Source: Promethearchaeia archaeon
GTDB lineage: Archaea > Asgardarchaeota > Lokiarchaeia > Sigyniarchaeales > SOKP01
Direction of reading: 5' to 3'
NCBI GenBank assembly: GCA_029856045.1
Contig: JAHQWG010000024.1
Span: 1-34,284 of the forward strand
Length of the DNA: 34,284 nucleotides
Shown here: in pieces, positions 2,089 to 34,281 of the stretch
How positions within the stretch are numbered: the first letter of the stretch is position 1
Layout of the letters: each line of letters opens with the position of its first letter
Notes under the pieces: model-generated
What the model was told of the DNA's origin: nothing
The model's database searches: none
What the model saw: only the letters and a program-made list of their open reading frames with translations
Translations under genes and position numbers: made by a program

Positions 2089-4008
2089 TTATTTTCTTTT
2101 TTTTGTGATATCCATGGTAAAGGTTGTAATTCCTCCTTCAATTTGCGTTCCAATTAATGGATATCCTGAATTATGAATTATATGAAGCATTGGTTTATTT
2201 TGCAAAAGTATTGATCCAGAAAATGTATTATATCGCAATTCACGTGCAATAGTTGCTAAATAATTTAATAAATATTTTGAAATACCCAATCCTCGCCATT
2301 CTTTACGCACAGTAAAAGCTAATTCACTATTTGAAGGCATAAACGTCTTAAAAAATCCACCTATTCCTACAATTTTTGCATTTCCATTATTTTCATATAT
2401 AGCAACTATGATCATATCCGTCGAATAGTCAATATTGACATAAGGTTGAATTTTTTTGTGTCGAAAATCCATAATAGGCGAAAAAAATCTATAATATCGA
2501 TCTTGTTTATCTAAGGAATAGTAAAGGTCTTGTAACATTCTTTCATCAGTTGGTTTTATAGGTCGAATTTCTAATGAAACATTATTTGATAAGATTAATC
2601 TAGTCTCATACTTTTCAGGATATAAACAAATTCTCCCATCAACTGAAATTGGTAATTTTTGATCTGAATACACGTAATGCCATTTTTTTGCATGTTCTAG
2701 TAATTCTTCCCGAAAATCCGGATGTGCTATATTAATCATCTGAAGAACTCTTTCTCTTATACTTTTTCCAAATAAATATGCTATTCCCCATTCAGTTATA
2801 ACGTAATGAACATCTCCACGCGTAATTACAACTCCTGTCCCTTGTGCTAAGTAAGGCACTATTCTTGAAATAACTTTTCCATCTAGTAGAACAGCCGTTG
2901 AGGGTAAAACTATAATTGGCTTTCCTTCTTTACATCTTCCCGCTCCTCTAATAAAATCTACTTGCCCTCCTATACCACTGTAAAAATTATGTCCAAGGGA
3001 ATCTGCATTAACTTGCCCTGTTAAATCTACAGTGAGTGCTGCATTTATTGCAACTTGCTTTCTATTTTGAGCAATAATGAATGGATCATTAACATAATCA
3101 GATGGGTGAAATTCAACACTTGGGTTATCATCAACAAAATCATAAAGTCTGCGAGAACCCATCACAAAAGAAGTAATAATTTTATCTTTATGAATTGTTT
3201 TCTTTTTACAAGTCACAATACCTTTTTCAACTAAATCAACCACACCATCTGAAAAAACCTCACTATGAACACCAAGATCTTTTTTATCATCTAAATATCT
3301 CGTAAATGCATTAGGAATCTGACCAATACCCATTTGTAGAGTTGACTCATTTTCAATTAATGAAGCTACAAATTTTCCAATTTTATTTGCAACTTCATTT
3401 GGAGGTTCATAATTAAATTCAATTATATTGTGATCAGATAAAATAAATGCATCAATATCATTCATATGAATAAATGAATCACCCAATGTTCTCGGCATAT
3501 TGGGATTGATTTCGGCTACAACAAAATTAGCTTCTTCCGTAATTGGCTTCACTATATCGACATTAATCCCAAAACTACAGAATCCAAATTTATCTGGAGG
3601 ACTAATTTGGATAAGGGCAGTATCCAAATGCATATGTCCTTGCTTAAAAAGACGAGGAATCTCAGATAAAAGCATTGGAGTATAATCTGCTAATCCTTCT
3701 TGAATCGCTTTTCTAAGGCTTGCTCCAATAAAAAAAGCGTTATGTCTAAAAAGATCTTCTATTCCACTAGCGGTTTCATAATAATTAAGATCACTAAGGC
3801 TTAAAAAATGTAATATCTCAACATCTGGAAGCGTTGGTCCAAGTTCTATTAATTTTTTAATAAGATCAATGGGTTCAGAACAACCGGAGTCAATGAAGAT
3901 CCTATCTCCTGGTTTAATGAATTTTGTAATTGCCTTCTCTATTGAAACTTGCTTTTTGGAATAGTTTTTTAGCCATTCAGGATTTTTATTAATATTTTTA
4001 TTGGGCAC
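2089..4008 (-). CDS. Acetyl-CoA hydrolase/4-hydroxybutyrate CoA-transferase family protein fused to a C-terminal GNAT acetyltransferase domain
   Basis: TLQMGIGQIP, GVHSEVFSDG (catalytic Glu motif), SGIGGQVDFIRGA and VITEWGIA mark the CoA-transferase. The C-terminal IRPIKPTD...ELAFTVRKEWRGLGI...N-x-x-M is a GNAT of the Pat type. Confidence 0.9.
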   Translation of the reverse strand: MPNKNINKNPEWLKNYSKKQVSIEKAITKFIKPGDRIFIDSGCSEPIDLIKKLIELGPTLPDVEILHFLSLSDLNYYETASGIEDLFRHNAFFIGASLRKAIQEGLADYTPMLLSEIPRLFKQGHMHLDTALIQISPPDKFGFCSFGINVDIVKPITEEANFVVAEINPNMPRTLGDSFIHMNDIDAFILSDHNIIEFNYEPPNEVANKIGKFVASLIENESTLQMGIGQIPNAFTRYLDDKKDLGVHSEVFSDGVVDLVEKGIVTCKKKTIHKDKIITSFVMGSRRLYDFVDDNPSVEFHPSDYVNDPFIIAQNRKQVAINAALTVDLTGQVNADSLGHNFYSGIGGQVDFIRGAGRCKEGKPIIVLPSTAVLLDGKVISRIVPYLAQGTGVVITRGDVHYVITEWGIAYLFGKSIRERVLQMINIAHPDFREELLEHAKKWHYVYSDQKLPISVDGRICLYPEKYETRLILSNNVSLEIRPIKPTDERMLQDLYYSLDKQDRYYRFFSPIMDFRHKKIQPYVNIDYSTDMIIVAIYENNGNAKIVGIGGFFKTFMPSNSELAFTVRKEWRGLGISKYLLNYLATIARELRYNTFSGSILLQNKPMLHIIHNSGYPLIGTQIEGGITTFTMDITKKRK

Positions 4009-4098: not shown

Positions 4099-6267
4099 TT
4101 ATTTTTTACTTATGCAATGTCCATTTTTAATTTTAAAATTCTCACATTTAGAACAAAATCCAAATCCATTGATTTTCTCCTTTAATCCATAATTCCAACA
4201 GAGAGGACATAAATAATAATCAAAATATTTACCATTTTTTGATGTTTTTATTCTAAATACATTAAAGCCACATTTTTGACAGTTAGCATTCTTTAGAATG
4301 GAAATAGTCCCTCTTTGAGGTAAAGCAAAAGTAGTTTTACAATCTTCTGACTTACAAGCCAAAAATCTTGTTTTCTTTTTTGTTCTTATAACAACCATCG
4401 GTGCTTTTTTGCATACCGAGCATAGAGATTTAGTTTCTTGCCGCTTCTTTTCTTGAATTGAAATTTGTGAATCTTCAAACTTTTTTAAAAAGATAGGTTT
4501 CCGCTTCCTGAATTTATCAAATAAATTTAGAAATTCTTGCCTAATTTTATCGGATATTAACTTCCAGTCAGATATTCCCTCTTTGATCTGTTCCAAATGA
4601 GTTTCTATGTGAGCAGTGAAACTGGGTTGCAAAAACTCTAACCAAATATCTTTTAGATTTTCAATTAGAGTATAACCCAATTCTGTAATGTGAGCGGATA
4701 ATTTTTTTCTTTTAATATAACCTCTATCCAGTAATAGTTTGATCATACTAGGTCTCGTACTTTTTGTACCGATTTTGTTTATTTCCATCAGCTTTATTAA
4801 GCTGTTATCTGTGTATCTTGGCAGTGGTTTTGTTTCCCTATCTTCGAGTTTAATTGATTCGATGTCTAATTCCTTTTCCTTATCAGGAAGGATTAAAGGT
4901 GGATTATATTTCTGCATTAAGAATGGAGCAATTTCATATGGTCCTTTATCTATCAATACATCATTTTTTAAAACAAAGTCTTCATTTCCGACGGAAAAGA
5001 TACACTTAGTTTTAATTGCCTTTCCCGGGCTAGAAAAAAGTGATAAATAATATCTCGCGAGTAGGTCGTATACTTTGGAATGGAGTTGGGAAGGAAAGAT
5101 TTTATCTGTTAAATCTACACTTTTTATCGTAGTGATTGGAGGGTGGTCCTGTGCATCTTTTTTACCTTGATTGGGAACAGTTCTATTTTTATTTATTAAG
5201 AATCGAGAGAAATCTCCATAATCTGTATGTGTAAGAAATTGAGTAATATTTTCTATATGGTTAAAATTTTCCTTATATTTGTCTGTATCCGTTCTTGGAT
5301 AGGTAATTAACTGATTAAGATAAAGATCTTCCATAATCTTCAATGCATGTATAGCTGTAACATTTGAATGTTTAATAATAAGTTGTAAGGCTTTAGAAGT
5401 ATTTAGAGGTGTGGGAGGATATTTCAAAATGGTTCTAGAATTTTTATTTTTTATGTATCCATTTCTTTCATTCCGAATTTTGTTAAAAACAGTTTCTGCA
5501 GTTTTCTTATCTTGAATGGGATTTTTAAGATTCGGGCAAACATATTTGAACCCATTATTCTCTACGATCGCATTAATTACCCAAAACGGTTTTGGTATAA
5601 ATTTTCTAATTTGAGTCTCTCTTAAAAATATTAGATATAAAAGACATGTTTGAACTCTTCCAATAGAAACGAATTGCACATTAGCTTTCTTTATCAAAGA
5701 CTTCAATGTTAAAGAAACTTCTCTTGTGGCTGAAAAACCGATAATTGCATCGATAATAGCCCGTGCCTCACCTGCATAAGCCCAACCCCATTTAGGTTGT
5801 ATCTGATTGTTATAAGCTCTAATAATATCCTGTTTTTGAAGCGAACTAAGCCATAATTGACTTATCTTAGTAATATTTTTAGAATTTTTTACAACTGAAT
5901 ATGCGTCAACTAAGCCTATATTACAACCCTCGACATCCGCATCGGTACCTATGATACAAGAATTAACATTCGCTTTCTTAGAGACAGATTCTAATAAACG
6001 GATGTAGTTATTTGCATATATAGAAGGGAATTTAAAAATTGAGTCGGAATTTATTAAAATATCACGGGGATCAGTCTTAGTCCAACTCTTATACTTATCG
6101 GTATTACGATATTCTTTAATATGACCGCGTAGAGGAACTACATAAATATTTTTATCTTTAATGTAATAATAGGATAATTTATTAAATAATAATTTATCAG
6201 GTATCCCTATTGCATTTGCAATAGCTTCTGCTGCCTTTCTTTTTTCACAAATTATTAATTCATTCAA
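4099..6267 (-). CDS. topA: DNA topoisomerase type IA (archaeal TopA/Topo III type) with C-terminal Zn-ribbons
   Basis: Toprim ICEK and TDADVEG, SIGRVQT, catalytic ITYPRTD, DHPPIT, IGTKSTR, and several C-terminal CxxC pairs. Confidence 0.95.
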   Translation of the reverse strand: MNELIICEKRKAAEAIANAIGIPDKLLFNKLSYYYIKDKNIYVVPLRGHIKEYRNTDKYKSWTKTDPRDILINSDSIFKFPSIYANNYIRLLESVSKKANVNSCIIGTDADVEGCNIGLVDAYSVVKNSKNITKISQLWLSSLQKQDIIRAYNNQIQPKWGWAYAGEARAIIDAIIGFSATREVSLTLKSLIKKANVQFVSIGRVQTCLLYLIFLRETQIRKFIPKPFWVINAIVENNGFKYVCPNLKNPIQDKKTAETVFNKIRNERNGYIKNKNSRTILKYPPTPLNTSKALQLIIKHSNVTAIHALKIMEDLYLNQLITYPRTDTDKYKENFNHIENITQFLTHTDYGDFSRFLINKNRTVPNQGKKDAQDHPPITTIKSVDLTDKIFPSQLHSKVYDLLARYYLSLFSSPGKAIKTKCIFSVGNEDFVLKNDVLIDKGPYEIAPFLMQKYNPPLILPDKEKELDIESIKLEDRETKPLPRYTDNSLIKLMEINKIGTKSTRPSMIKLLLDRGYIKRKKLSAHITELGYTLIENLKDIWLEFLQPSFTAHIETHLEQIKEGISDWKLISDKIRQEFLNLFDKFRKRKPIFLKKFEDSQISIQEKKRQETKSLCSVCKKAPMVVIRTKKKTRFLACKSEDCKTTFALPQRGTISILKNANCQKCGFNVFRIKTSKNGKYFDYYLCPLCWNYGLKEKINGFGFCSKCENFKIKNGHCISKK

Positions 6268-6509
6268 TATCTTTACTAGAAAAGTGAGAGAATTTGTTTT
6301 CTATAAAAAATCTTAATAATTGTATAATTTAAATAAATATATTACTAGTATGTATCTGAATTTTTAATATATTTTCCGAGAGGATGTATATAAATAAAAA
6401 TTTTTACGTTAAATCATCATAATCAACTATTAAGGATCTATAATTGTAATATTTAAGAAATATCATCATACACGTAAGATTTAAAATCTTAAGTTTATTA
6501 GTGTAAATC

Positions 6510-26144: not shown

Positions 26145-26804
26145 TTAAATAATATTATAAGATGTTATCCAAAAATAAGTTAATAATTTTACATTAAGAT
26201 TTTTTATATTATCTCCAAGAATTGGAGCAAATTCATTTTTTTTAGGGAAATTTTTTACAATTTCATATTTTCTTCCATCTTCTAAAGTCCTTATTTGATA
26301 TGTATTCCCTTCATTATCTATTCTTGATATAGGAGTACTACTATTTTTGGTATATAGGTTATCAATAAAAACCACTAAGGCATCTGATTGAAGTTTAGAG
26401 TGAAAAATATTAAGAAATGTTTTTAACTTAGATTTCAAAATATGCGACCACCAGAAACCACTAAAACCAGCGGAAAATTTCCCCTTAATTTTATTTATAG
26501 AGAGCGAATCATCCTGAATAAAGGTAACATTATTTGAAGTATATTTTTTATTTCTTGCGATTTGAAGAACTTCTTGGTTAATATCAGTTGCAGTAACTAA
26601 ATTTGCAACAGAAGCAATAGTTTCAGTCCAGTAGCCAGTTCCACATGCAATTTCAAGAACATTGTGTCCTTTAAATAATTTTTTAAGAATAGAATGAATT
26701 GAAGCAATATCTTTTTGTCGTTCAGGTCGTTGATAAGTTTTCTCATATTCAATTGCTCGATCTGCATAATATTGGATGAGTTTCTTATCTCGATTTTTTT
26801 TCAT
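26145..26804 (-). CDS. Class I SAM-dependent methyltransferase
   Basis: VLEIACGTGYWT motif I, acidic TDIN, GFWWSHI. Confidence 0.92.
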   Translation of the reverse strand: MKKNRDKKLIQYYADRAIEYEKTYQRPERQKDIASIHSILKKLFKGHNVLEIACGTGYWTETIASVANLVTATDINQEVLQIARNKKYTSNNVTFIQDDSLSINKIKGKFSAGFSGFWWSHILKSKLKTFLNIFHSKLQSDALVVFIDNLYTKNSSTPISRIDNEGNTYQIRTLEDGRKYEIVKNFPKKNEFAPILGDNIKNLNVKLLTYFWITSYNII

Positions 26805-26831
26805 GAATCTTTCCTTAAATGATTTAATTTA

Positions 26832-28256
26832 TTACAAATATTTAGAGACAATTTTATTCAATTCATTTGCAAGAGATTCGTTAATTGGTTTTATGGGGGT
26901 TTTATTTGATAATTTATCAGCTTCTTCATGCGCTCTTTTTCTTGCGGATTTTGAACCCAATTTTTTCCATGAATCGCGTGTCTTTCTATCAATTATTGAA
27001 CTTGGAAAAAATAATTCTTTTCTAAAAAGTTTTAAAGTAGATGGGTGAGATAAAAATTCTTCTTTCTCTCCATAATCTTTTAGAATTTCTAAAGCAAATG
27101 GAGACCCATAATCCTCAATACCTTGAAGGAATCTTTTAACCATTCCAATAATTTCATTATCAATTAAAAGTTTTTCAATACTTTGTGTAGATTCAAAATC
27201 AAGCATTCCGGGACCTGAAATCATATTAATTCCAGCTAATCCGGCTAGAAGTGCCCCCATTCCTGCTTCAAAACCAGCTTGAGCATCTGGAACTTTTGCA
27301 TCACTTAGACTCATATAAGCGTGTGTTGGCATTTTTAAAAATTTGCCCATTTCTGTGTCAGCAATGTTTATCATCATTGTCTCTATAGCTCCCATCGGTG
27401 TTGTGCCATGTTTCATATCCATTACTGCTGGTGATCCACCCCATATTAATGGTGCTCCACGTTTTGTTAATTGAGCAATTACAACCCCAACAAGGGTTTC
27501 GGCACAATGTTGAGTAATTGATCCCAACAATGTAATTGGAGCACTTGCACCAGCCAATGGCATTGAAACAAACTCAGATGGAACCATACTTTTAGCAGCA
27601 TCAATAACTGATTGAGTAGTAAGATCTGACCACTTTAAAGGTGGGCTGGGGCAAGCGTCAAAGATTGCGAATGGTTTTCTCGCTAGATCATCTTCAGATA
27701 ATCGGCAAGCTAAAAGAATTTCCCGCATAATTGAAAAACTTTCTTTACGAAATGTTCCGGTTACTACAGGTTTATAACAATTAGAAAGAGCAATAAAAAG
27801 TCGATGCCAATCTTGCGCTTCTTTAGGCACATCTTGATAGATTAACGCAGTGCTTTGAGCTTCAATATATTTTAATTGTTCAACGATTTTTGAAAATTTA
27901 ATGAAATCATTCGAAATAGCTTCTCTAATTTCGCCTGTATTCTCATCCAAGATGAAAATTGCAGCGGATCCAGGATCAAAATGAACTTGGTCATCTTTCA
28001 ATGAAATATGTTCCTTACCCTCTCGGTCAAATAAGGTTATTTCATTTGGAACCGATTCTAAACATTTATCAACTAAGTCACGTGGGATGTAGAAGCGTTG
28101 TTCCTTATAGTTAAGCCCTTGTTGCGAAAATAAATCTATAGCTTCTTGATTTTCTATGAAAACTCCTTGAGTTTCTAAAATATCTTTTGCTTCCTCAAAA
28201 ATTAATTTCTTGTGCTCATTATCTAATAACTGAACTTTTGGTTTAATAATTGGCAT
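26832..28256 (-). CDS. Trimethylamine methyltransferase (MttB) superfamily protein, non-pyrrolysine (MtgB-like)
   Basis: SPPLKW, MPLAGASAPITLLG, DMKHGTTPMGAIE, LSDAKVPDAQAGFE (Leu at the Pyl-equivalent site), IDNEI; no internal stop codon. Confidence 0.92.
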   Translation of the reverse strand: MPIIKPKVQLLDNEHKKLIFEEAKDILETQGVFIENQEAIDLFSQQGLNYKEQRFYIPRDLVDKCLESVPNEITLFDREGKEHISLKDDQVHFDPGSAAIFILDENTGEIREAISNDFIKFSKIVEQLKYIEAQSTALIYQDVPKEAQDWHRLFIALSNCYKPVVTGTFRKESFSIMREILLACRLSEDDLARKPFAIFDACPSPPLKWSDLTTQSVIDAAKSMVPSEFVSMPLAGASAPITLLGSITQHCAETLVGVVIAQLTKRGAPLIWGGSPAVMDMKHGTTPMGAIETMMINIADTEMGKFLKMPTHAYMSLSDAKVPDAQAGFEAGMGALLAGLAGINMISGPGMLDFESTQSIEKLLIDNEIIGMVKRFLQGIEDYGSPFALEILKDYGEKEEFLSHPSTLKLFRKELFFPSSIIDRKTRDSWKKLGSKSARKRAHEEADKLSNKTPIKPINESLANELNKIVSKYL

Positions 28257-28285
28257 ACTAAATTTTTTTCGATTAAATCATATAT

Positions 28286-29167
28286 TTATAATGAATCAAT
28301 AATTTTACATATTTCCATAATTGTTTGAGGCGATGTTCCACAACATCCGCCAACAATTTTTGCTCCCAAATTAATCATATCATGAATATCTCTTGCATAA
28401 TCTTTTGTTGGATATTCATAAAACGGTTTACCATTTTTATCAATTTTTGGTTGTCCTGCATTTGGTTTAGCTGAAAGTGGCTTATTAGTTAATTTAATAC
28501 TCTCTTCTATTAATCCAATCATATCGTTAGATCCAATAGTACAATTTGCTCCAATTACATCTACTTTTTCCCGTTCCAATATTTGAATACATTTTTCAAG
28601 AGAATCACCCATTATCGTAAAATAACCCCTTGGAGTTTTATTATATGTCATTGAAGCTATAATCGGTTTTTCAGAATTTTTTTTAACTGCTCGAATTGCT
28701 GCTTGCATTTCTTCAATATCTGAAATTGTTTCAATATGCCAGAGATCAACTCCATTTTCTAGAATTTTTACTTGATTAGCAAAACTGGACTGCCATTGTT
28801 CTGAAGTGGTATTTCCTACAGGTGGCCTAAATTCACCACTTGGTCCAATATCGCCCACAATTAAACAGGTAGGAGGACATGCCTTTTTTATATTTTCAAG
28901 TGCTTTTTCATTAATTTCTTTAATTCGATCTTCAAGTTTATATTTTTTTAAATTTAATGAAGATGACCCAAAAGTGCATGTTTGGCACATATCTGAGCCG
29001 ACATCATAGTATGATTTATGTATCTCAGAAATAATATCAGGTTTCTCAATATTCAATAGATCAGGAATCTTACCAGGTTCGATTCCTCGTTTAAATATTT
29101 CTGTACCCATAGCTCCATCAAATAAAATTATCTTCGAATCATTTTTTAACCAATCATGGAATAACAT
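28286..29167 (-). CDS. Stand-alone homocysteine S-methyltransferase domain (MetH N-terminal/BHMT-type Zn barrel)
   Basis: FDGAMGTE, IHKSYYDVGSD, GDIGPSG, IETISD, Zn ligands GANC and GGCCGTSP, KPNAGQP. Confidence 0.93.
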   Translation of the reverse strand: MLFHDWLKNDSKIILFDGAMGTEIFKRGIEPGKIPDLLNIEKPDIISEIHKSYYDVGSDMCQTCTFGSSSLNLKKYKLEDRIKEINEKALENIKKACPPTCLIVGDIGPSGEFRPPVGNTTSEQWQSSFANQVKILENGVDLWHIETISDIEEMQAAIRAVKKNSEKPIIASMTYNKTPRGYFTIMGDSLEKCIQILEREKVDVIGANCTIGSNDMIGLIEESIKLTNKPLSAKPNAGQPKIDKNGKPFYEYPTKDYARDIHDMINLGAKIVGGCCGTSPQTIMEICKIIDSL

Positions 29168-29179
29168 TTTAACAATATT

Positions 29180-29184
29180 CCTCC
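29180..29184 (-). promoter_or_regulatory. Shine-Dalgarno-like GGAGG upstream of the homocysteine methyltransferase gene
   Basis: cctcc on the + strand in the 29-bp gap; similar AGGAG at 29855-29859 and 33016-33020. Confidence 0.5.
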
Positions 29185-29196
29185 AAATTTTAAATT

Positions 29197-29844
29197 TTAT
29201 ATATGCAGGAGAGATTTAGCTAATTCAACTGCTTCTACAGCATTTCCAGCATAACCATCTGCACCGCATTCTTCAACCCATTTACTTGTAACCGGAGCAC
29301 CACCAAGTATTACCTTAAATTTATTGCTAATTCCCTTTTTTTTCAAGATTTCTACAACTTTTTTCTGTCCTAACATAGTAGTTGTTAAAAGTGCTGATAC
29401 TCCTATAATATCAACATTTTTTTCAATTGCTTCATCAATAATCTTTTCAGCGGGAACATCGGCACCCAAATCATAAACCTCAAAACCATACGCTCTTAAC
29501 ATTGTTGCAACAATTGTTTTCCCGATTGAGTGAATATCACCTTCAATAGTTGCTATTACAACTTTTCCTAATGTTTTTCTTTCTATACCGCCCTGTAGAT
29601 GAGGTATGAGAAGATCCAAGCAATCTTGCATGATTTTTGCCCCTCTCATCAACTCTGGAAGGAAAAATTCACCCGCATCCCATAATTCTCCTACGCGCCG
29701 AATTCCTGCTCCAAACCCTTCTTCAATAACATTAAGTATATTTAAATTTTCATCAATTGCTTTATTGGCTAATTCTGTGGCTTTATCTTCATTTAAATTA
29801 ACGATTGCATCAGAAATTTCTCCATATAAGTTTTCTTGAGACAT
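29197..29844 (-). CDS. Methyltransferase cognate corrinoid protein (MttC/MtbC family)
   Basis: Cap domain VGELWDAGEFFLPEL, B12 motif GDIHSIGK (DxHxxG), SALLTTT, GGAP, GADGY. Confidence 0.95.
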   Translation of the reverse strand: MSQENLYGEISDAIVNLNEDKATELANKAIDENLNILNVIEEGFGAGIRRVGELWDAGEFFLPELMRGAKIMQDCLDLLIPHLQGGIERKTLGKVVIATIEGDIHSIGKTIVATMLRAYGFEVYDLGADVPAEKIIDEAIEKNVDIIGVSALLTTTMLGQKKVVEILKKKGISNKFKVILGGAPVTSKWVEECGADGYAGNAVEAVELAKSLLHI

Positions 29845-29986
29845 ATTATTCTCTCTCCTATTCTAAAAAATTATCCAAATATATTAAAACAAATAAACTA
29901 ATGTATTATAGATTTTCTATTATTTGTTATTTAAATCTTACAAAAATAAAGATTACTTAGATAAATTGAAAAAATCTTTGATTATT

Positions 29987-31426
29987 TCAAGCCGATGATG
30001 TAAGATTTCGTTGTGCTTTCTTAACTATTTCTTCCAGTTCTTTAGTCACATCATCTGCAAGTCGTTCGGGTTTATGGGTTGCCAAGATCTCCTCTTTGCG
30101 TTTTCGGCAGCGTTTTTCCATACTAGAAGCCCCTTTATTAATCCAAGTATCATAATACTCCCTGTCTAAGAGAGTCGGGAACCATAATTCATTTCTGAAA
30201 TGTTCAACTGTATGTTGTTTATCAAGAAAAGAACCTTTGGGACCAACCTTTTCAATAATATCAATAGCGAATGTCTTTTCTTCAAAGTTTATTTGTCTGT
30301 TGATGCTTTCTACATATGAGATGATTTCAGATTGCATTACAAGAAAATCTAAAGAACTTGCCTGATCTACACCACAGATTCCCATATGACCAAAAATATC
30401 AGCTCCAGCTGCAGTTCCTAATGCCAGAGTTAAACCACACTCGAGACCAGCTTGGGCATCTGGTCGTTTAGAATCAGTTAGCCCTACATTAATATAGACA
30501 GGCAAATTATAATACTTACCCATCTGAGTCATTGCAACACTGAATATAGCCTGTTCAGGACCGCTGAAAATTAATTGCGTGGTTTTCATATCAAAAGCAT
30601 GGCATATCCCACCGTAGCATACCGGTATTCCTTCGCGTATGAGTTGAGTAATACATATTCCAGCTAAAATTTCAGCGTTTTCCTGAGCTAATGTTCCTGC
30701 AATTGTAGCAGGCGCAGATAATCCCATTTGAGCCATAGGCCCAATTGAAACCGGCATATTAAGTTGAGCAGTTTCAAATAGTAGGTCAACTCCGTTAAAT
30801 GGAAAGGACAGAGGACTTACCGGTTCAAGTAGGGGATGAAACATTGGTAATTTCTGGGCTTTTTTCTCATCTCCTCTAAGGGCGATAATAATATCTACTA
30901 TAAATTTTGCTGAAGCTCTATCATGGAACCAGAATATAATCGGTTTAGTAGTATTTTTTATAGTTTCAAACGCCACTGCTACACATCGCCATGCCACTGG
31001 AAGTTCATGTGGGTCTGCCATGGCTCCTGGTATGGTAATTTTTTCCAAAGCATCGGCAAATTTAACAGCAGTCGCGACATCATTAAGAGATGAATATCTC
31101 CGTTTATTATCAATATTATCAATCCATAGTGCTTGACCGCCTGAAGTGTTGTAATTACGTTTCCCAAGACCAAACTCAGCCTTTTTCGAAAGATCTCGTC
31201 CATAAAGAGTGAAATTTTTTCCCGCTTTTGAAAGCAGCTCCATTACTAAATCAGCTGAAATTCTTACTCGTTTATCTTTCATATCCACATTCGCCCCTCT
31301 CTCGGCGAAACGTGATAAAAGCTCATCATGCGGGATAATTACACCAATCCTCTCAAGTATTATAAGAGATTTTTGGTGTATTATATTAATCTGCTGTTCT
31401 GTAAGCACTTTTGCGATCATTGACAA
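29987..31426 (-). CDS. Second MttB-superfamily methyltransferase, non-pyrrolysine; ATG start probably at 31420
   Basis: PVSPL, QMGLSAPATIAGTLAQENAEILAG, DMKT...SGPE, GLTDSKRPDAQAGLE (Leu at the Pyl site), KVGPKGSFL. Confidence 0.92.
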   Translation of the reverse strand: MSMIAKVLTEQQINIIHQKSLIILERIGVIIPHDELLSRFAERGANVDMKDKRVRISADLVMELLSKAGKNFTLYGRDLSKKAEFGLGKRNYNTSGGQALWIDNIDNKRRYSSLNDVATAVKFADALEKITIPGAMADPHELPVAWRCVAVAFETIKNTTKPIIFWFHDRASAKFIVDIIIALRGDEKKAQKLPMFHPLLEPVSPLSFPFNGVDLLFETAQLNMPVSIGPMAQMGLSAPATIAGTLAQENAEILAGICITQLIREGIPVCYGGICHAFDMKTTQLIFSGPEQAIFSVAMTQMGKYYNLPVYINVGLTDSKRPDAQAGLECGLTLALGTAAGADIFGHMGICGVDQASSLDFLVMQSEIISYVESINRQINFEEKTFAIDIIEKVGPKGSFLDKQHTVEHFRNELWFPTLLDREYYDTWINKGASSMEKRCRKRKEEILATHKPERLADDVTKELEEIVKKAQRNLTSSA

Positions 31427-31445
31427 TTGAACAATTATACTTAAC

Positions 31446-31463
31446 TTTATATAAAACTTTTTA
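31446..31463 (-). promoter_or_regulatory. Putative archaeal BRE/TATA promoter for the second mttB-family gene (leaderless or short leader)
   Basis: The minus strand reads AAAAAG-T-TTTATATAAA, with the TATA element about 26-35 nt upstream of the ATG at 31420. The AT-rich background weakens the call. Confidence 0.4.
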
Positions 31464-31562
31464 TGGAAATTTTATTAGGCTTCGTGTTTGGAATATTTTG
31501 AGATATAGATTAAGTTTATTTTAAAAAAAAAAAAAAATTTGAGATAAAATAAACTTTTGTAA

Positions 31563-33005
31563 TTAAAAGCCGAATTCCTTCAATTGCTTTCTAATTTCTA
31601 ATGTTTTTTCAGGTGTTAGAGGGTATTTTTGCCAAAATATAATTGTACAAATTAATAAAATAATGGCTGGAATTACACTCATATGAAAACGAATCCCCAA
31701 TTGTGCTGGAGCTGATTGACTAGTTGCTCCTTCTACAAATCCAGTGAGTATATGAATAAATGTAAATATTGCGATTTGAGCTCCTCGAGAAAGCCGTGAT
31801 AGGAAAGCTACAACACCTACAGTTGCACCCCTTACATCTGAACGAGTTAATACCACTCTTTCATCAAGCACGTCCGAAAAATAGATTGTTGTTAGAACCC
31901 AGAGGTTTCCCATTGTGAAACCCAAAATAAACATGTAAATCATCGAATCAATTACACCTATATAAAAAGTGGTTAAAAAACACCCTATAACTAGCAATAC
32001 CCCCCCAATCACTGCAGTTTGCTTATTATTGTTATTTTTTTTAGCAAACCAAGTCCAGAACGGAACCGATACCAGCGCTCCAGTAAGAAAAGATGCGAAT
32101 AGAAGGATCATATCAAGTTCTGTAGGTAAGTCACTCACCAAAACAAAATTCGCTGCATATGGAATAGAAGCTGTCATAGAACCGGTGACTATCATAAATC
32201 CAAAGAAGATTATGACATAATATACAAAACTTTTTTGTTTTAAGGTGGACTTCAATGCTTCTATGAAACTTTGACGTTTTTTCTCGCTTATATAATAGCG
32301 GTCAATGAGTTCTTTGTTCTCTTTCATTCCAAATAGGCATAATATTGAAACGGGTGCAATCGTACCAATAATAATCCAAACCATTGAGATATAAGCGACT
32401 TGGTTGTTTATACCTCCAAAAAGACCAAGTAATATTGGTGGGACGATATTAGCGACCGGTAATGCCATCATAGAAAGAGGAGTTCCCCAGCCTCTTGCCT
32501 TTCTACGTGCTGGACCAGTTCGAAATTTGTCAGGAAAAAGAGCATCAGCATTTACAAAACAAAGTGTTGTTAAAGAATCAAATAAGCAGGTTGTAAATAT
32601 GATCCACCCAAAAAATGGCATTGGATTCGTTGCAGCATCGCCAGCTGGTGGCATAAATACAAGGGCTAAAACAAAATTGGCGGGTAAGATGCCTATAATT
32701 ATCCAAATAAATCTTTTACCATACTTTCTTGTGAATTTCGTAATGCGATCAGTGAGGTGTCCTATAAGTGGATCATTAACAGCATCCCATAATGTAAAGA
32801 TGAGCATAGCCAAAAAGATTAATAACGTGTCTAAACCAACCACGACTTCATAAAAGAAAAAAATGTAGGCATTAAAAACTCCATATGCTAACCCGTTCCA
32901 AAAACCAGCACTGCCATAAGAAATCGTATTGAGAGTTGATGGTATTTTATAGGCTCCTTCATCAGTGGATTTCTCCTTATCTTTATTTTTTTTTACTTCA
33001 TTCAT
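31563..33005 (-). CDS. MFS transporter, glycoside-pentoside-hexuronide (MelB/MFS_2) family
   Basis: WDAVNDPLIGHLTDR, YGKR, about 12 TM segments, FSDVLDE, C-terminal YPLT. Confidence 0.9.
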   Translation of the reverse strand: MNEVKKNKDKEKSTDEGAYKIPSTLNTISYGSAGFWNGLAYGVFNAYIFFFYEVVVGLDTLLIFLAMLIFTLWDAVNDPLIGHLTDRITKFTRKYGKRFIWIIIGILPANFVLALVFMPPAGDAATNPMPFFGWIIFTTCLFDSLTTLCFVNADALFPDKFRTGPARRKARGWGTPLSMMALPVANIVPPILLGLFGGINNQVAYISMVWIIIGTIAPVSILCLFGMKENKELIDRYYISEKKRQSFIEALKSTLKQKSFVYYVIIFFGFMIVTGSMTASIPYAANFVLVSDLPTELDMILLFASFLTGALVSVPFWTWFAKKNNNNKQTAVIGGVLLVIGCFLTTFYIGVIDSMIYMFILGFTMGNLWVLTTIYFSDVLDERVVLTRSDVRGATVGVVAFLSRLSRGAQIAIFTFIHILTGFVEGATSQSAPAQLGIRFHMSVIPAIILLICTIIFWQKYPLTPEKTLEIRKQLKEFGF

Positions 33006-33222
33006 TTATAAAAGACTCCTTTCTTTTTTAAAAAATTTTAAATAGAATTCAAATATATTTGATTGATCTTTTATTTAAAGCTTTCTTGCTTAGAAAATTT
33101 GGAAATTATAATATTTTGCAAAAATAGTGCATTAAAAATATACAATTATTGAACTCATAACACCAATTAGAATTAGACTAGTTATTTTTTTTTCTTTTTT
33201 TTTCCGTTTTTTAAGTAGTTCC

Positions 33223-34281
33223 TTATCTATCTTGTTTTTCTAACCTTTCTAATGTTTCTTTAATTTTTTTCAATTCAACTTTTAAATCTTCGCCTTGTTT
33301 ATTTTCTCCTTTTCTCCTACTTTTTAATTCTTCTTCATCAATTTTTTTTAAAAGAATATTATTTTTCAGTTCTTCTGAAATTATTTTTTTAATTTCCTTT
33401 AAAAATTGATTGCGGGGAAGCCCATTTATTTCCATTATTCTTTCCCTTACTGCAGATCTAATAAATTCTGATTTCGACTGATTAGTTTTTTTGGCAAATA
33501 TTTCAATTTCTTTTAATTCATTTTCATTTACCAGAAATTTGACTTGATATATTCTTTTTAACGTTTCTTCGACTTTTTTTAATTCTTCTCTACGTTTTCT
33601 TCTCTCTTCTTCTCTCGCTTTTAACGCTTCTTCGGGGGGTTCTTTAAAATATTTACCATTTTTATGAGATGGTATAAAATCTTCTTTATATTCTCTTATT
33701 ATCGCTTTTCTAAGACTACTTGATATTCTTTTATTATAAATTGATTTCCGAATAATAATTTGATGAATCAACTTACCAATTGCTTTTTCTAAATTGCTAT
33801 TATCATTTATTGAAGTTTCAATGTAATCAACTAATCCCTCTTTTTTAACAAATTCACGATATTTTTTTCTATCAATGGTTTTAAGGTTTTCAATTAAATC
33901 AAATTTATTTCCAATTAATAGGAGTGGCCATCTATTTAAATTAATGTTATTCCAAATTTTTTTAAGACATTTAGAGTGGTATTCAAAAGTTTCTGGATTA
34001 GATAGGTCGAAGACAAATAAAACAGCTGAGGTTCCGCTGTAATATTGTTCATGGAGCTTTTCAAATTTTTTATCATCAATAAAATCCCAAATTTGAAGAT
34101 TATAATTATTTTCATCAACCAATACTGATTTTTGAAAAAAATTTACACCAATTTTTAATTTCCAATCTTCTTTTTCTTCGAATAGTTTTTTAGCATATTG
34201 TTCCATTATATTAGTTTTCCCAACCCCTGACTTTCCAAGAACTATAATTTTAAATTCATCTTTAAATTCTTCTTTACTCAT
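33223..34281 (-). CDS. Rab-like small GTPase domain fused to coiled-coil and ribbon-helix-helix (CopG/MetJ/Arc-like) segments
   Basis: FKIIVLGKSGVGKT (G1), IGVNF, LQIWD, YYSG, VFDLS, GNKFDL (G4), ETS (G5). Residues ~244-283 (IYQVKFLVNENELKEIEIFAKKTNQSKSEFIRSAVRERIM) fit an RHH. Confidence 0.85.
   Translation of the reverse strand: MSKEEFKDEFKIIVLGKSGVGKTNIMEQYAKKLFEEKEDWKLKIGVNFFQKSVLVDENNYNLQIWDFIDDKKFEKLHEQYYSGTSAVLFVFDLSNPETFEYHSKCLKKIWNNINLNRWPLLLIGNKFDLIENLKTIDRKKYREFVKKEGLVDYIETSINDNSNLEKAIGKLIHQIIIRKSIYNKRISSSLRKAIIREYKEDFIPSHKNGKYFKEPPEEALKAREEERRKRREELKKVEETLKRIYQVKFLVNENELKEIEIFAKKTNQSKSEFIRSAVRERIMEINGLPRNQFLKEIKKIISEELKNNILLKKIDEEELKSRRKGENKQGEDLKVELKKIKETLERLEKQDR

What the first reader, a model, noticed from the sequence alone, without database searches (positions are those of the whole stretch)
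33223..34281. Rab-like GTPase with degenerate switches fused to a ribbon-helix-helix DNA-binding domain
Seen: G1, G4 and G5 are intact, but the switch I Thr is replaced (KLKIG vs xxTIG) and G3 DxxG reads DFID. A charged helix follows, then an RHH pattern (beta-strand YQVKFLV, helix, S-K-S-E-F-I-R-x-A-V; about 33433-33552), then a terminal coiled coil. Established: RHH domains are dimeric transcription regulators, and Asgard archaea have expanded small GTPase families. Inference: a one-component guanine-nucleotide-binding (pseudo)GTPase transcription factor. It lies directly upstream of, and co-oriented with, the MFS/methyltransferase cluster.
Basis: partly seen in the sequence, partly recalled or inferred. 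Interest (0 to 1): 0.74.

Follow-up and report, generated by a model that had tools for sequence, protein, structure and literature searches.

The report
Switch-less Rab-like GTPase–RHH self-repressor
A Loki-type Asgard archaeon makes one protein that joins a Rab-like GTP-binding domain, stripped of its on/off switch residues, to a small ribbon-helix-helix DNA-binding domain whose only convincing target in the genome is a promoter about 1 kb upstream of its own gene, so it looks like a self-controlling regulator and not a regulator of the transporter genes beside it.

Summary
Window 33223-34281 (-) encodes a 352-aa protein with a Rab-like domain (Pfam Ras, E=1.5e-32; TM 0.88 to Rab11a). G1 and G4 are intact, but K43 replaces the switch I Thr and DFIDD replaces DTAGQ. 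A charged linker, an RHH (RHH_1 21.8 bits, cutoff 20.5) and a helical tail follow.

The fusion is not an assembly artefact. About 25 species genomes carry it and independent metagenome contigs span it.

The reading as a regulator of the MFS/methyltransferase cluster is not supported. The window holds no operator-like site, and those neighbours are not conserved in the family.

In other members, two ATGTAC-N7-GTACAT boxes flank the TATA box of the gene's own promoter. A matrix built from those boxes puts its two best hits in this 3.34-Mb genome on contig C8. C8 adjoins the window's end across a 145-nt gap. The hits flank a TATA element upstream of a nonsense-mutated SDR gene that precedes the fusion gene.

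Boxes accompany the QVKFLV-type strand whether the N-terminal part is Rab-like, leucine-rich-repeat or absent. The module is confined to one Asgard family, and one sibling species has deleted the gene.

This scan found the family before on other DNA. No paper found describes it. What the GTPase domain senses is unknown.

The parts
33223..34281 (-). Complete ORF of 352 aa plus stop: the Rab-like pseudoGTPase–RHH fusion protein (P0001)
   Evidence: There are 39 homologs. Independent contigs span it.
33757..34257 (-). Rab-like small GTPase domain, aa 9-175
   Evidence: Pfam Ras 1.5e-32, TIGR00231 2.2e-18. Rab7 and Rab11 are the top PDB sequence hits. Foldseek TM 0.88 to Rab11a.
34213..34236 (-). 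G1 P-loop GKSGVGKT (aa 16-23), intact
   Evidence: G16, G21 and K22 are invariant in the family.
34153..34155 (-). K43, at the position of the switch I (G2) threonine
   Evidence: Alignment to Rab7. No close family member has Thr here.
34072..34086 (-). Degenerate G3/switch II: D66-F-I-D-D70 in place of DTAGQ. The Walker B Asp is kept. The Gly and the catalytic Gln are lost.
   Evidence: Unique among the Ras-like GTPases found in this genome.
33898..33909 (-). G4 NKFD (aa 125-128), intact guanine-specificity motif
   Evidence: N125 and D128 are at least 90% conserved.
33805..33819 (-). G5-like ETSIN (aa 155-159). E155 and S157 are invariant. SAK reads SIN.
33553..33756 (-). Linker, aa 176-243. 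It contains an insertion of about 65 aa found only in the ~317- and ~350-aa forms, including the charged helix 217-244. Confidence in the model is low here.
   Evidence: Highest dN/dS of the gene's parts, 0.68.
33427..33552 (-). Ribbon-helix-helix domain, aa 244-285: strand Y245-QVKFLV-251, helix A 253-265, turn T-N-Q-S-K-S, helix B 270-285
   Evidence: RHH_1 21.8 bits against cutoff 20.5. NikA-like in 35/39 and DUF6290 in 33/39 members. Helices modelled. Invariant Q246-V251, S271, F273-R275.
33226..33426 (-). Helical tail, aa 286-352. It has a lineage-specific insertion and ends in the family-conserved amphipathic helix (aa 329-351, nt 33229-33297; E336, L337, I340, L344 invariant). Candidate oligomerisation helix.
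   Evidence: The oligomerisation role is inferred, not tested.
33006..33222 (.). Intergenic spacer to the MFS gene. It belongs to the finding only as a negative: it contains no GTAC and no operator-like site.

Best explanation
The gene encodes a sequence-specific DNA-binding protein that mainly controls its own transcription.

Proposed mechanism (inferred from anatomy and comparison):
- The C-terminal RHH forms dimers. The paired strands (Q246-x-K248 facing out) read the palindromic core GTAC.
- Two dimers sit one helical turn apart on each ATGTAC-N7-GTACAT box.
- The conserved C-terminal amphipathic helix probably joins the dimers, as the tail of Mnt does.
- Two boxes flank the TATA element, so the bound protein would block TBP/TFB/RNA polymerase. 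This is the usual mode of archaeal repressors.

In this genus the operator-promoter lies about 0.95 kb upstream of the gene, on the adjoining contig C8. A nonsense-mutated short-chain dehydrogenase gene lies between the two, so the fusion gene is most likely the second cistron of an operator-controlled transcript.

The N-terminal Rab-like domain keeps the nucleotide pocket (G1, Walker B Asp, G4, G5 Ser). It has lost the two gamma-phosphate sensors and the catalytic Gln. It therefore cannot work as a canonical GTP/GDP switch. It probably acts as an input or interaction module that binds a nucleotide constitutively or binds a partner protein, and so tunes DNA binding.

Shown here: the domain make-up, the degenerate motifs, the conservation, the boxes, their near-uniqueness, their association with the strand type, and the contig adjacency. 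Inferred: binding itself, repression, co-transcription, and any role of nucleotide.
For: Domains and motifs.

Operators:
- All 23 short-form and ~317-aa fusion genes in the species-genome loci with intact upstream DNA have two GTAC-N7-GTAC boxes at about -108 and -56 (first seen).
- In all 23 the boxes are 49-54 bp apart and TTTATAAA lies just after box 1.
- A matrix built only from those other genomes gives its two best hits in all of G000 at C8:813 (24.2 bits) and C8:844 (20.5 bits). They are 31 bp apart (start to start), flank TTTATATAA, and lie 53 nt upstream of the SDR start codon. The next best hit scores 16.0.
- Eight Markov-simulated genomes gave no hit of 20 bits or more; the maximum was 17.8.
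- The same arrangement occurs in the sibling genome G177.

Adjacency: C8 and C23 align to the G177 contig at 1669-5144 and 5290-8584. A 1068-nt metagenome contig carrying G000's 21-nt indel bridges the gap.

Strand and box go together: of 24 paralog loci, 7 have boxes, and all 7 are LRR-fused or QVKFLV-type. Four of them matched my strand pattern as QVKFLV or QVKFVV; three LRR forms did not match the pattern. None of the 15 standalone FIKVMV-type paralogs has a box.

The pattern TGTAC-N7-GTACA occurs only 2-4 times in each of 5 other members' genomes, and the own-promoter boxes are among these sites.

RHH and tail are under purifying selection, dN/dS 0.26.
Against: - There is no experiment and no RNA data. 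No RNA run is listed.
- The RHH dimer could not be modelled. In monomer models the strand is disordered, and the tail-only model has pLDDT 59.
- In this genome the operator is not next to the gene. About 0.95 kb and an SDR pseudogene intervene. The AT-rich spacer of about 60 nt before the gene could hold a promoter of its own.
- The gene is dispensable. Sibling G144 has deleted the operator, the SDR gene and about 80% of the gene. Two further same-genus genomes show no copy.
- dN/dS for the whole gene is 0.48, against 0.17-0.28 for the neighbours. Selection may be relaxed.
- The Rab-like domain is replaced by LRRs, or is absent, at the same locus elsewhere. It is therefore not needed for the RHH-operator unit, and nothing shows that it binds nucleotide.
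Confidence: 0.62

Rival explanations
1. This is a one-component guanine-nucleotide-sensing transcription factor that controls the adjacent, co-oriented MFS transporter, MttB, corrinoid protein and methyltransferase cluster. GTP or GDP occupancy would set DNA binding at 33006-33222.
For: The gene is co-oriented with, and 217 nt upstream of, the MFS gene. The downstream genes form a coherent methyl-transfer cluster. G1, G4 and the G5 Ser are conserved, so nucleotide binding is plausible. The same order (fusion gene, then MFS) is kept in G177, and in G144 the remnant sits beside MFS.
Against: There is no GTAC and no operator-like site in the spacer. The best matrix score in the whole 34-kb window is 5.1 bits. 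In 22 other loci the neighbours are different (PFL, CheR, HAD and others), so the MFS link is specific to this one genus. G144 keeps the MFS cluster after deleting the regulator.
Confidence: 0.08
2. The protein is an RHH self-repressor whose N-terminal domain is only a protein-interaction or oligomerisation module. It would be a true pseudoGTPase that binds no nucleotide, and the signal would come from a partner protein, as for the LRR-RHH paralogs.
For: The N-terminal domain is swapped for LRRs, a classic protein-binding fold, or is missing, at the same chromosomal slot with the same boxes. The switch I Thr, G3 Gly and catalytic Gln are lost family-wide. A few members also lack the P-loop Ser/Thr: GKY, GKK and GKR in P0004, P0045 and P0049.
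Against: The P-loop Gly and Lys, Walker B Asp, NKxD and the G5 Ser are invariant or at least 90% conserved. That is hard to explain if the pocket is empty.
Confidence: 0.2
3. In this genus the locus is decaying. The fusion gene would be a recently relaxed or non-functional relic, stranded behind a pseudogene after relocation.
For: The SDR gene between operator and fusion gene has independent in-frame TAA codons in G000 (codon 49) and G177 (codon 209). G144 deleted most of the locus. G125 and G320 show no copy. dN/dS is 0.48 overall and 0.68 in the linker. The near-invariant Trp of helix B is Arg here.
Against: The 352-codon frame is intact in G000, in G177 and in metagenome contigs from several studies. 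RHH plus tail has dN/dS 0.26. The operator pair is conserved and is still the best match in the genome. Trp-to-Arg also occurs in other members.
Confidence: 0.07
4. It is an antitoxin-like or partition-like element. The RHH would act as the DNA-binding half of a toxin-antitoxin pair, or as a centromere-binding protein, with the NTPase as its partner activity. The boxes would then be a centromere-like site.
For: The RHH region gives weak hits to DUF6290, the RelB antitoxin model and NikA-like. There is a single box cluster per genome, next to the gene, as in type Ib par operons. In this genus the locus lies beside Orc1/Cdc6 and a tyrosine recombinase.
Against: No toxin-like small gene is conserved beside it. 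The NTPase is Ras-like with degraded catalytic residues, unlike ParA/ParF motors. The ancestral locus is chromosomal and syntenic, between metabolic genes. The boxes bracket a TATA box at a fixed distance from the start codon.
Confidence: 0.03

Closest known systems
Arc, Mnt (phage P22) and CopG (pMV158) ribbon-helix-helix autorepressors
   Same: RHH fold signature. Palindromic sub-sites about one helical turn apart, each presumably bound by one dimer. The operator overlaps the gene's own promoter. A C-terminal helix could join dimers, as in Mnt. The comparison rests on textbook knowledge of these repressors, together.
   Different: Those are proteins of roughly 45-85 aa with the RHH at the N-terminus and no accessory enzyme-fold domain. 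Here the RHH lies behind a 175-aa Rab-like domain and a long linker. The promoter is archaeal (TATA box), and there are two boxes on either side of the TATA.
RHH regulators with a ligand-binding accessory domain (NikR with a nickel-binding C-domain; MetJ with the SAM co-repressor)
   Same: The logic of an RHH DNA reader whose affinity is set by a small-molecule-binding part of the same protein (from general knowledge).
   Different: The accessory domain here is a Ras-superfamily P-loop fold placed N-terminal to the RHH. No ligand has been shown, and the domain can be exchanged for LRRs.
aCcr1 / CdrS, small archaeal RHH cell-cycle repressors (PMC9976878, PMC7439475)
   Same: Archaeal RHH proteins that bind short GTA/TAC-containing palindromes around or just downstream of the TATA box and repress. 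aCcr1 is the best NCBIfam RHH match.
   Different: The aCcr1 model scores 22.8 bits against a cutoff of 60, so this is not a member. aCcr1 is a single-domain protein of about 58 aa with many genomic targets. Here the target appears to be essentially the gene's own promoter.
Eukaryotic pseudoGTPases and atypical small GTPases (RGK family, Rnd, RhoH)
   Same: A Ras-like fold that retains the nucleotide pocket but has non-canonical G2/G3 and no catalytic Gln, so no classical GTP/GDP cycle is expected (general knowledge).
   Different: Those act through membrane or protein partners and are not fused to DNA-binding domains. Nucleotide binding by this protein is untested. There is no C-terminal prenylation Cys.
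ROCO proteins (LRR-Roc-COR)
   Same: The family uses the same two module types, a Roc/Ras-like domain (Pfam Roc 6e-20) or leucine-rich repeats, as N-terminal parts.
   Different: The two modules are alternatives here and are not in one chain. There is no COR domain, and the output is an RHH domain, not a kinase.

Membership tests
Ras-superfamily small GTPase (Pfam PF00071 / TIGR00231) | Profile score above the curated cutoff, and the Ras/Rab fold | tested here: met
   Ras 112.8 bits against 21.6; TIGR00231 66.6 against 42.5. Foldseek TM 0.88 to Rab11a.
Ras-superfamily small GTPase (Pfam PF00071 / TIGR00231) | G1 GxxxxGK[ST] and G4 NKxD | tested here: met
   GKSGVGKT and NKFD
Ras-superfamily small GTPase (Pfam PF00071 / TIGR00231) | G2 switch I Thr and G3 DxxG (gamma-phosphate sensors), plus the catalytic Gln | tested here: not met
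   K43 in place of Thr; DFIDD in place of DTAGQ. This holds family-wide.
Ras-superfamily small GTPase (Pfam PF00071 / TIGR00231) | Binds and hydrolyses GTP | not testable with these tools
   Needs biochemistry
Rab family proper | C-terminal prenylatable Cys motif on a flexible tail | tested here: not met
   The protein ends ...LERLEKQDR. There is no Cys in the last 200 residues.
Ribbon-helix-helix (MetJ/Arc/CopG) superfamily | Profile match above the cutoff over strand, helix A and helix B | tested here: met
   RHH_1 21.8 bits against cutoff 20.5, aa 251-282. The margin is small. Support comes from NikA-like in 35/39 and DUF6290 in 33/39 members.
Ribbon-helix-helix (MetJ/Arc/CopG) superfamily | N-terminal strand with alternating polar and hydrophobic residues, then two helices joined by a G/N-x-S/T turn | tested here: met
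   Y-Q-V-K-F-L-V, helix 253-265, T-N-Q-S-K-S, helix 270-285
Ribbon-helix-helix (MetJ/Arc/CopG) superfamily | Intertwined dimer with a two-stranded antiparallel sheet | tested here: inconclusive
   Only monomer prediction is on hand. The strand is unstructured in both models and the tail-only model has pLDDT 59. The tail profile found no RHH among PDB sequences.
Ribbon-helix-helix (MetJ/Arc/CopG) superfamily | Sequence-specific binding to repeated sub-sites | not testable with these tools
   Indirect only: conserved GTAC-N7-GTAC boxes that go with the QVK strand type.
aCcr1 cell-cycle regulator family (NF053762) | Score above the equivalog cutoff | tested here: not met
   22.8 bits against 60
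Type II antitoxin (RelB / DUF6290-type RHH) | Adjacent cognate toxin gene in an operon | tested here: not met
   Neighbours are PFL, CheR, a steroid dehydrogenase-like protein and HAD in the family, and SDR and MFS here. RelB scores 15 bits against 50.

The most novel reading that the evidence does not exclude
In close archaeal relatives of eukaryotes, a Rab-type domain has been rewired from a membrane-traffic-style switch into the sensing half of a transcription factor. Constitutive GTP or GDP occupancy, or capture by a GTPase regulator such as a longin or roadblock partner, would directly set how tightly the RHH part holds a promoter. That would be the first direct link between a Ras-superfamily fold and DNA. 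The in-place exchange of Rab-like and LRR inputs would then show how modular signalling proteins of the ROCO kind were assembled.
Probability: 0.2. Interest if true: 0.8.

Novelty: new variant of a known kind. Interest (0 to 1): 0.6.

Why it matters
Asgard archaea carry dozens of Ras/Rab/Arf/Rag-like GTPases, and their functions are almost entirely unknown. This family offers one with a concrete, cheap read-out: a defined 19-bp palindrome pair and a soluble protein of 255-352 aa.

If the Rab-like domain modulates DNA binding, it would be a kind of one-component regulator not described in the literature searched. It would also give a handle on what these GTPase folds sense in the closest prokaryotic relatives of eukaryotes.

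If it does not, the family still documents a pseudoGTPase of prokaryotic origin, and an in-place swap of the domain attached to a fixed DNA-binding module.

For annotation, public records call these proteins only 'GTP-binding protein' or 'Rab family GTPase' and miss the DNA-binding half.

Tried and rejected
I used the genome search, the search for related loci and the fetch from genomes instead.
- The protein atlas was closed or did not hold the sequences.
- Assembly chimera: rejected.
- Operator at the MFS promoter 33006-33222, or anywhere in the window: none found.
- Conserved functional neighbourhood: synteny is strong among the short forms, but the genes are unrelated metabolic genes, and the synteny is not shared by this genus.
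- Tail profile against PDB sequences: only spurious weak hits and no RHH.
- Tail-only AlphaFold2 model: pLDDT 59 and the strand not formed, so it was not passed to a fold search.
- RNA evidence: no RNA holder is listed among the 22 runs.
- Raw reads: only Logan contigs were available, so there is no read-level check of the TAA codons in the SDR gene.
- Wide Asgard distribution, as suggested by MAG labels (Hod-, Hermod-, Thor-, Odinarchaeota): not borne out. The module was in 59/134 genomes of one GTDB family and 1/1 of a second family of the same order, and in none of the 264 genomes searched from other families of the phylum.
- aCcr1 membership: below the cutoff.
- Literature searches on Asgard with small GTPase and RHH or DNA-binding fusion, and on pseudoGTPase with archaea, found no description of this architecture.
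- The sigma-70 promoter scanner was not used, because the organism is archaeal.
Full report
**The observation**

The window is a whole contig, G000:C23. On its minus strand, 33223-34281 is an open frame of 352 codons that starts 3 nt from the contig end. Pfam finds Ras (E=1.5e-32, aa 11-175), Roc and Arf. It also finds RHH_1 at aa 251-282 with 21.8 bits, just above the gathering cutoff of 20.5. Weaker hits to the RHH-type families NikA-like, DUF6290 and PSK_trans_fac fall on the same stretch. NCBIfam adds small_GTP, plus sub-threshold hits to the aCcr1 and RelB RHH models.

The closest solved sequences are Rab7 and Rab11 (E of about 1e-24 to 1e-26). The printed alignment shows:
- G1 is intact.
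- K43 stands where the switch I Thr should be.
- D66-F-I-D-D70 stands where DTAGQ should be.
- NKFD is intact.
- ETSIN stands for ETSAK.

AlphaFold2 with a 39-sequence alignment gives a confident GTPase domain, a long charged helix, the two RHH helices (253-265 and 270-285) and two tail helices. Foldseek places the domain with Rab11, Rab1 and Ypt7 at TM up to 0.88.

**The fusion is real and conserved**

Homologs fall into three length classes of about 255, 317 and 350 aa. Across them the strand QVKFLV and the helix B motif S-x-F-I-R are invariant, and a C-terminal helix (ELKKIRELLERLE) is conserved. Every close member lacks the G2 Thr and the G3 Gly, while the P-loop, Walker B Asp, NKxD and G5 Ser are kept.

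Of 33 P-loop/NKxD GTPases I could pick out in this genome, 26 have canonical DxxG, and those 26 have a switch I Thr. The window's protein is the only clearly Ras-like one without them.

Logan contigs from independent metagenome runs (marine sediment and salt marsh; 13 studies hold the stretch) were laid on the sibling contig. One 1070-nt contig covers GTPase, linker and RHH in a single piece. A chimeric join is excluded.

**Distribution**

A profile of the RHH-plus-tail module (A2) found it in 59 of 134 genomes of the window's GTDB family and in the one genome of a second family of the same order. It found none in the 264 genomes searched from other families of the phylum. An exhaustive HMMER pass over 1.84 billion representative proteins gave only 70 clusters at E ≤ 1e-3 and 26 at E ≤ 1e-10. 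The module is narrow. The 'Hod/Hermod/Thor/Odin' labels on some MAG records should not be read as wide Asgard occurrence.

**Operators**

In the short and ~317-aa forms, the 220 nt before the start codon hold two boxes, ATGTAC-N7-GTACAT, at about -108 and -56. This was seen in 23 of 23 such loci from the species-genome collection that have intact upstream DNA (first seen). In all 23 the boxes are 49-54 bp apart (about five helical turns), and TTTATAAA lies directly after box 1. The two GTAC cores within a box are 11 bp apart.

Earlier notes of this scan on other genomes had pointed to such boxes. I treated them as a lead and re-derived the boxes from the sequences myself.

Three tests support a link between the boxes and the RHH:
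1. The pattern TGTAC-N7-GTACA occurs only 2-4 times in each of five other members' genomes, and the gene's own promoter boxes are among these sites.
2. Of 24 paralog loci, 7 have boxes, and all 7 are LRR-fused or QVKFLV-type. Four matched my strand pattern as QVKFLV or QVKFVV. None of the 15 standalone paralogs whose strand reads FIKVMV or similar has a box.
3. A matrix built only from other genomes, scanned over all 3.34 Mb of G000, gives its two best hits next to each other at C8:813 (24.2 bits) and C8:844 (20.5 bits). The third best hit scores 16.0, inside a coding region. Eight first-order Markov genomes gave no hit of 20 bits or more.

**Where the operator sits in this genome**

C8 begins inside a short-chain dehydrogenase (SDR) gene. 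In the same-genus genome G177, that gene lies directly upstream of the fusion gene. The reverse complements of C8 and C23 align to the G177 contig at 1669-5144 and 5290-8584. The two contigs are therefore neighbours across a gap of 145 nt. A 1068-nt metagenome contig carrying G000's 21-nt indel bridges the gap.

The two boxes flank TTTATATAA, are 31 bp apart start to start (about three turns), and lie 53 nt upstream of the SDR start codon. G177 has the same arrangement.

The SDR frame carries an in-frame TAA at codon 49 in G000 and at codon 209 in G177. Both correspond to GAA in the other genome, so the two nonsense changes are independent.

The order is therefore: Orc1/Cdc6, tyrosine recombinase, boxes and TATA, SDR pseudogene, about 60 nt, fusion gene, 217 nt, MFS and the MttB/corrinoid cluster. 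The most economical reading is that the fusion gene is transcribed from the operator-controlled promoter through the decaying SDR gene. A promoter of its own in the AT-rich spacer cannot be excluded.

**The MFS link**

The window contains no operator-like site. The best score is 5.1 bits, and there is no GTAC in 33006-33222. In 22 other loci the flanking genes are a pyruvate-formate-lyase-like enzyme, an AMP-binding enzyme, a beta-eliminating lyase, CheR, a steroid dehydrogenase-like protein, HAD and an acyltransferase. None of these is near the window's gene. The co-orientation with MFS is a feature of this genus only. G144 keeps the MFS cluster without the regulator.

**State of the gene in this genus**

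G144 (10 contigs) retains only the last 70 codons next to MFS. The boxes, the SDR gene and the 5' 80% of the gene are gone. Two more same-genus genomes, 94% and 69% complete, show no copy.

Between G000 and G177, dN/dS is 0.48 for the gene: 0.52 for the GTPase domain, 0.68 for the linker and 0.26 for RHH plus tail. The neighbours give 0.27 (MFS), 0.28 (SDR) and 0.17 (recombinase). The divergence is small, so the figures are noisy. They indicate constraint, strongest on the DNA-binding part, perhaps relaxed elsewhere.

**The N-terminal domain is exchangeable**

Proteins of 417-450 aa with leucine-rich repeats in front of the same RHH and tail, and a 130-aa form with no N-terminal domain, sit in the same chromosomal slot (PFL upstream; CheR, steroid dehydrogenase-like and HAD downstream), with boxes of the same kind. 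The constant unit is therefore RHH, tail and operator. The Rab-like domain is one of several inputs. This fits a role as a sensing or partner-binding module, and it argues against the Rab-like domain being needed for DNA binding itself.

**Mechanism proposed**

RHH dimers would read the GTAC cores through Q246 and K248, with two dimers per box on one face of the helix. The terminal amphipathic helix would join dimers. The two boxes bracket the TATA element, so the bound protein would block pre-initiation complex formation and the protein would repress its own synthesis.

The Rab-like domain keeps a nucleotide pocket but lacks the loaded-spring residues and the catalytic Gln. It is not a canonical switch. 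It may hold nucleotide constitutively or bind a partner. Everything from 'binds' onward is inference.

**Comparison and novelty**

In what it works like, the protein is closest to Arc, Mnt and CopG-type autorepressors and to RHH regulators with accessory domains (NikR, MetJ). Among archaeal RHH proteins it is closest to aCcr1 and CdrS, which bind short palindromes around the TATA-to-start region. It is not a member of aCcr1: 22.8 bits against a cutoff of 60.

As a GTPase it belongs to the Ras superfamily by profile and fold but fails the G2 and G3 tests. In that it resembles eukaryotic RGK and Rnd-type atypical GTPases.

Four literature searches found no description of a small-GTPase-RHH fusion. 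Public names for these proteins mention only the GTPase.

I rate it a new variant of a known kind: an RHH autorepressor with an unprecedented input domain. This scan has already met the same family on other DNA. What this window adds:
- the long-linker form;
- the relocated locus;
- the operator displaced behind a pseudogene on the neighbouring contig;
- the loss of the gene in a sibling species;
- the negative result for the MFS link.

**Limits**

There are no RNA data, no raw reads and no multimer modelling. The look-up of encoding contigs and the protein atlas were closed.

Noticed in passing
G000:C8:1-762 (minus strand; adjoins window end 34284 across ~145 nt) and L043:4404-5240: The short-chain dehydrogenase gene between the operator and the fusion gene has an in-frame TAA at codon 49 in G000 and a different in-frame TAA at codon 209 in G177. 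Each corresponds to GAA in the other genome, so these are independent nonsense changes. Even so, dN/dS is only 0.28.
   Followed up: partly
L041 (G144:C1:143000-152000), about 2620-3330: A same-genus genome has deleted the operator, the SDR gene and the 5' 80% of the fusion gene. A 70-codon tail remnant is left between the MFS gene and the tyrosine recombinase gene.
   Followed up: partly
G000:C8:1106-3238; L040:1-1947; L041:3331-6616: The locus in this genus abuts a tyrosine recombinase (Phage_integrase) and an Orc1/Cdc6 gene, followed in G144 by a Gtr1/RagA-like GTPase. This could be a replication-origin neighbourhood or the edge of an integrated element. I did not resolve which.
   Followed up: no
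L050, L054, L061, L070, L076 (about 5000-6280) and L073:5869-6258: Leucine-rich-repeat-RHH proteins (417-450 aa) and a 130-aa RHH-only form occupy the same chromosomal slot as the GTPase-RHH gene in other genomes, with the same kind of GTAC-N7-GTAC boxes. The N-terminal domain appears to have been swapped in place.
   Followed up: partly
P0049 (276 aa, from a 1320-nt ENA contig): This protein has a canonical Rab-like N-terminal half (TIGVDF, WDVAGEERF). From about the G4 motif onward it is near-identical to the switch-less family. It is either an assembly chimera or a natural recombinant.
   Followed up: no
window 26145-33005 (minus strand): MFS_2 transporter, two uninterrupted MttB-family methyltransferase ORFs (479 and 474 aa, no in-frame stop), a B12-binding corrinoid protein, a homocysteine-S-methyltransferase-type protein and a SAM methyltransferase. 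This looks like a non-pyrrolysine methylamine or betaine demethylation cluster.
   Followed up: partly
whole genome G000: The palindrome GTAC occurs 3216 times in 3.34 Mb at 29.4% GC. That is roughly 2.8-fold fewer than base composition predicts (my arithmetic). This helps make the operator boxes stand out.
   Followed up: no
G000:C14:22146-22168: The third-best operator-matrix hit in the genome (16.0 bits, GGGTACAGATTGGGTACATG) lies inside the 3' part of a 291-aa ORF (C14:21396-22271). It is probably chance, and I did not examine it further.
   Followed up: no
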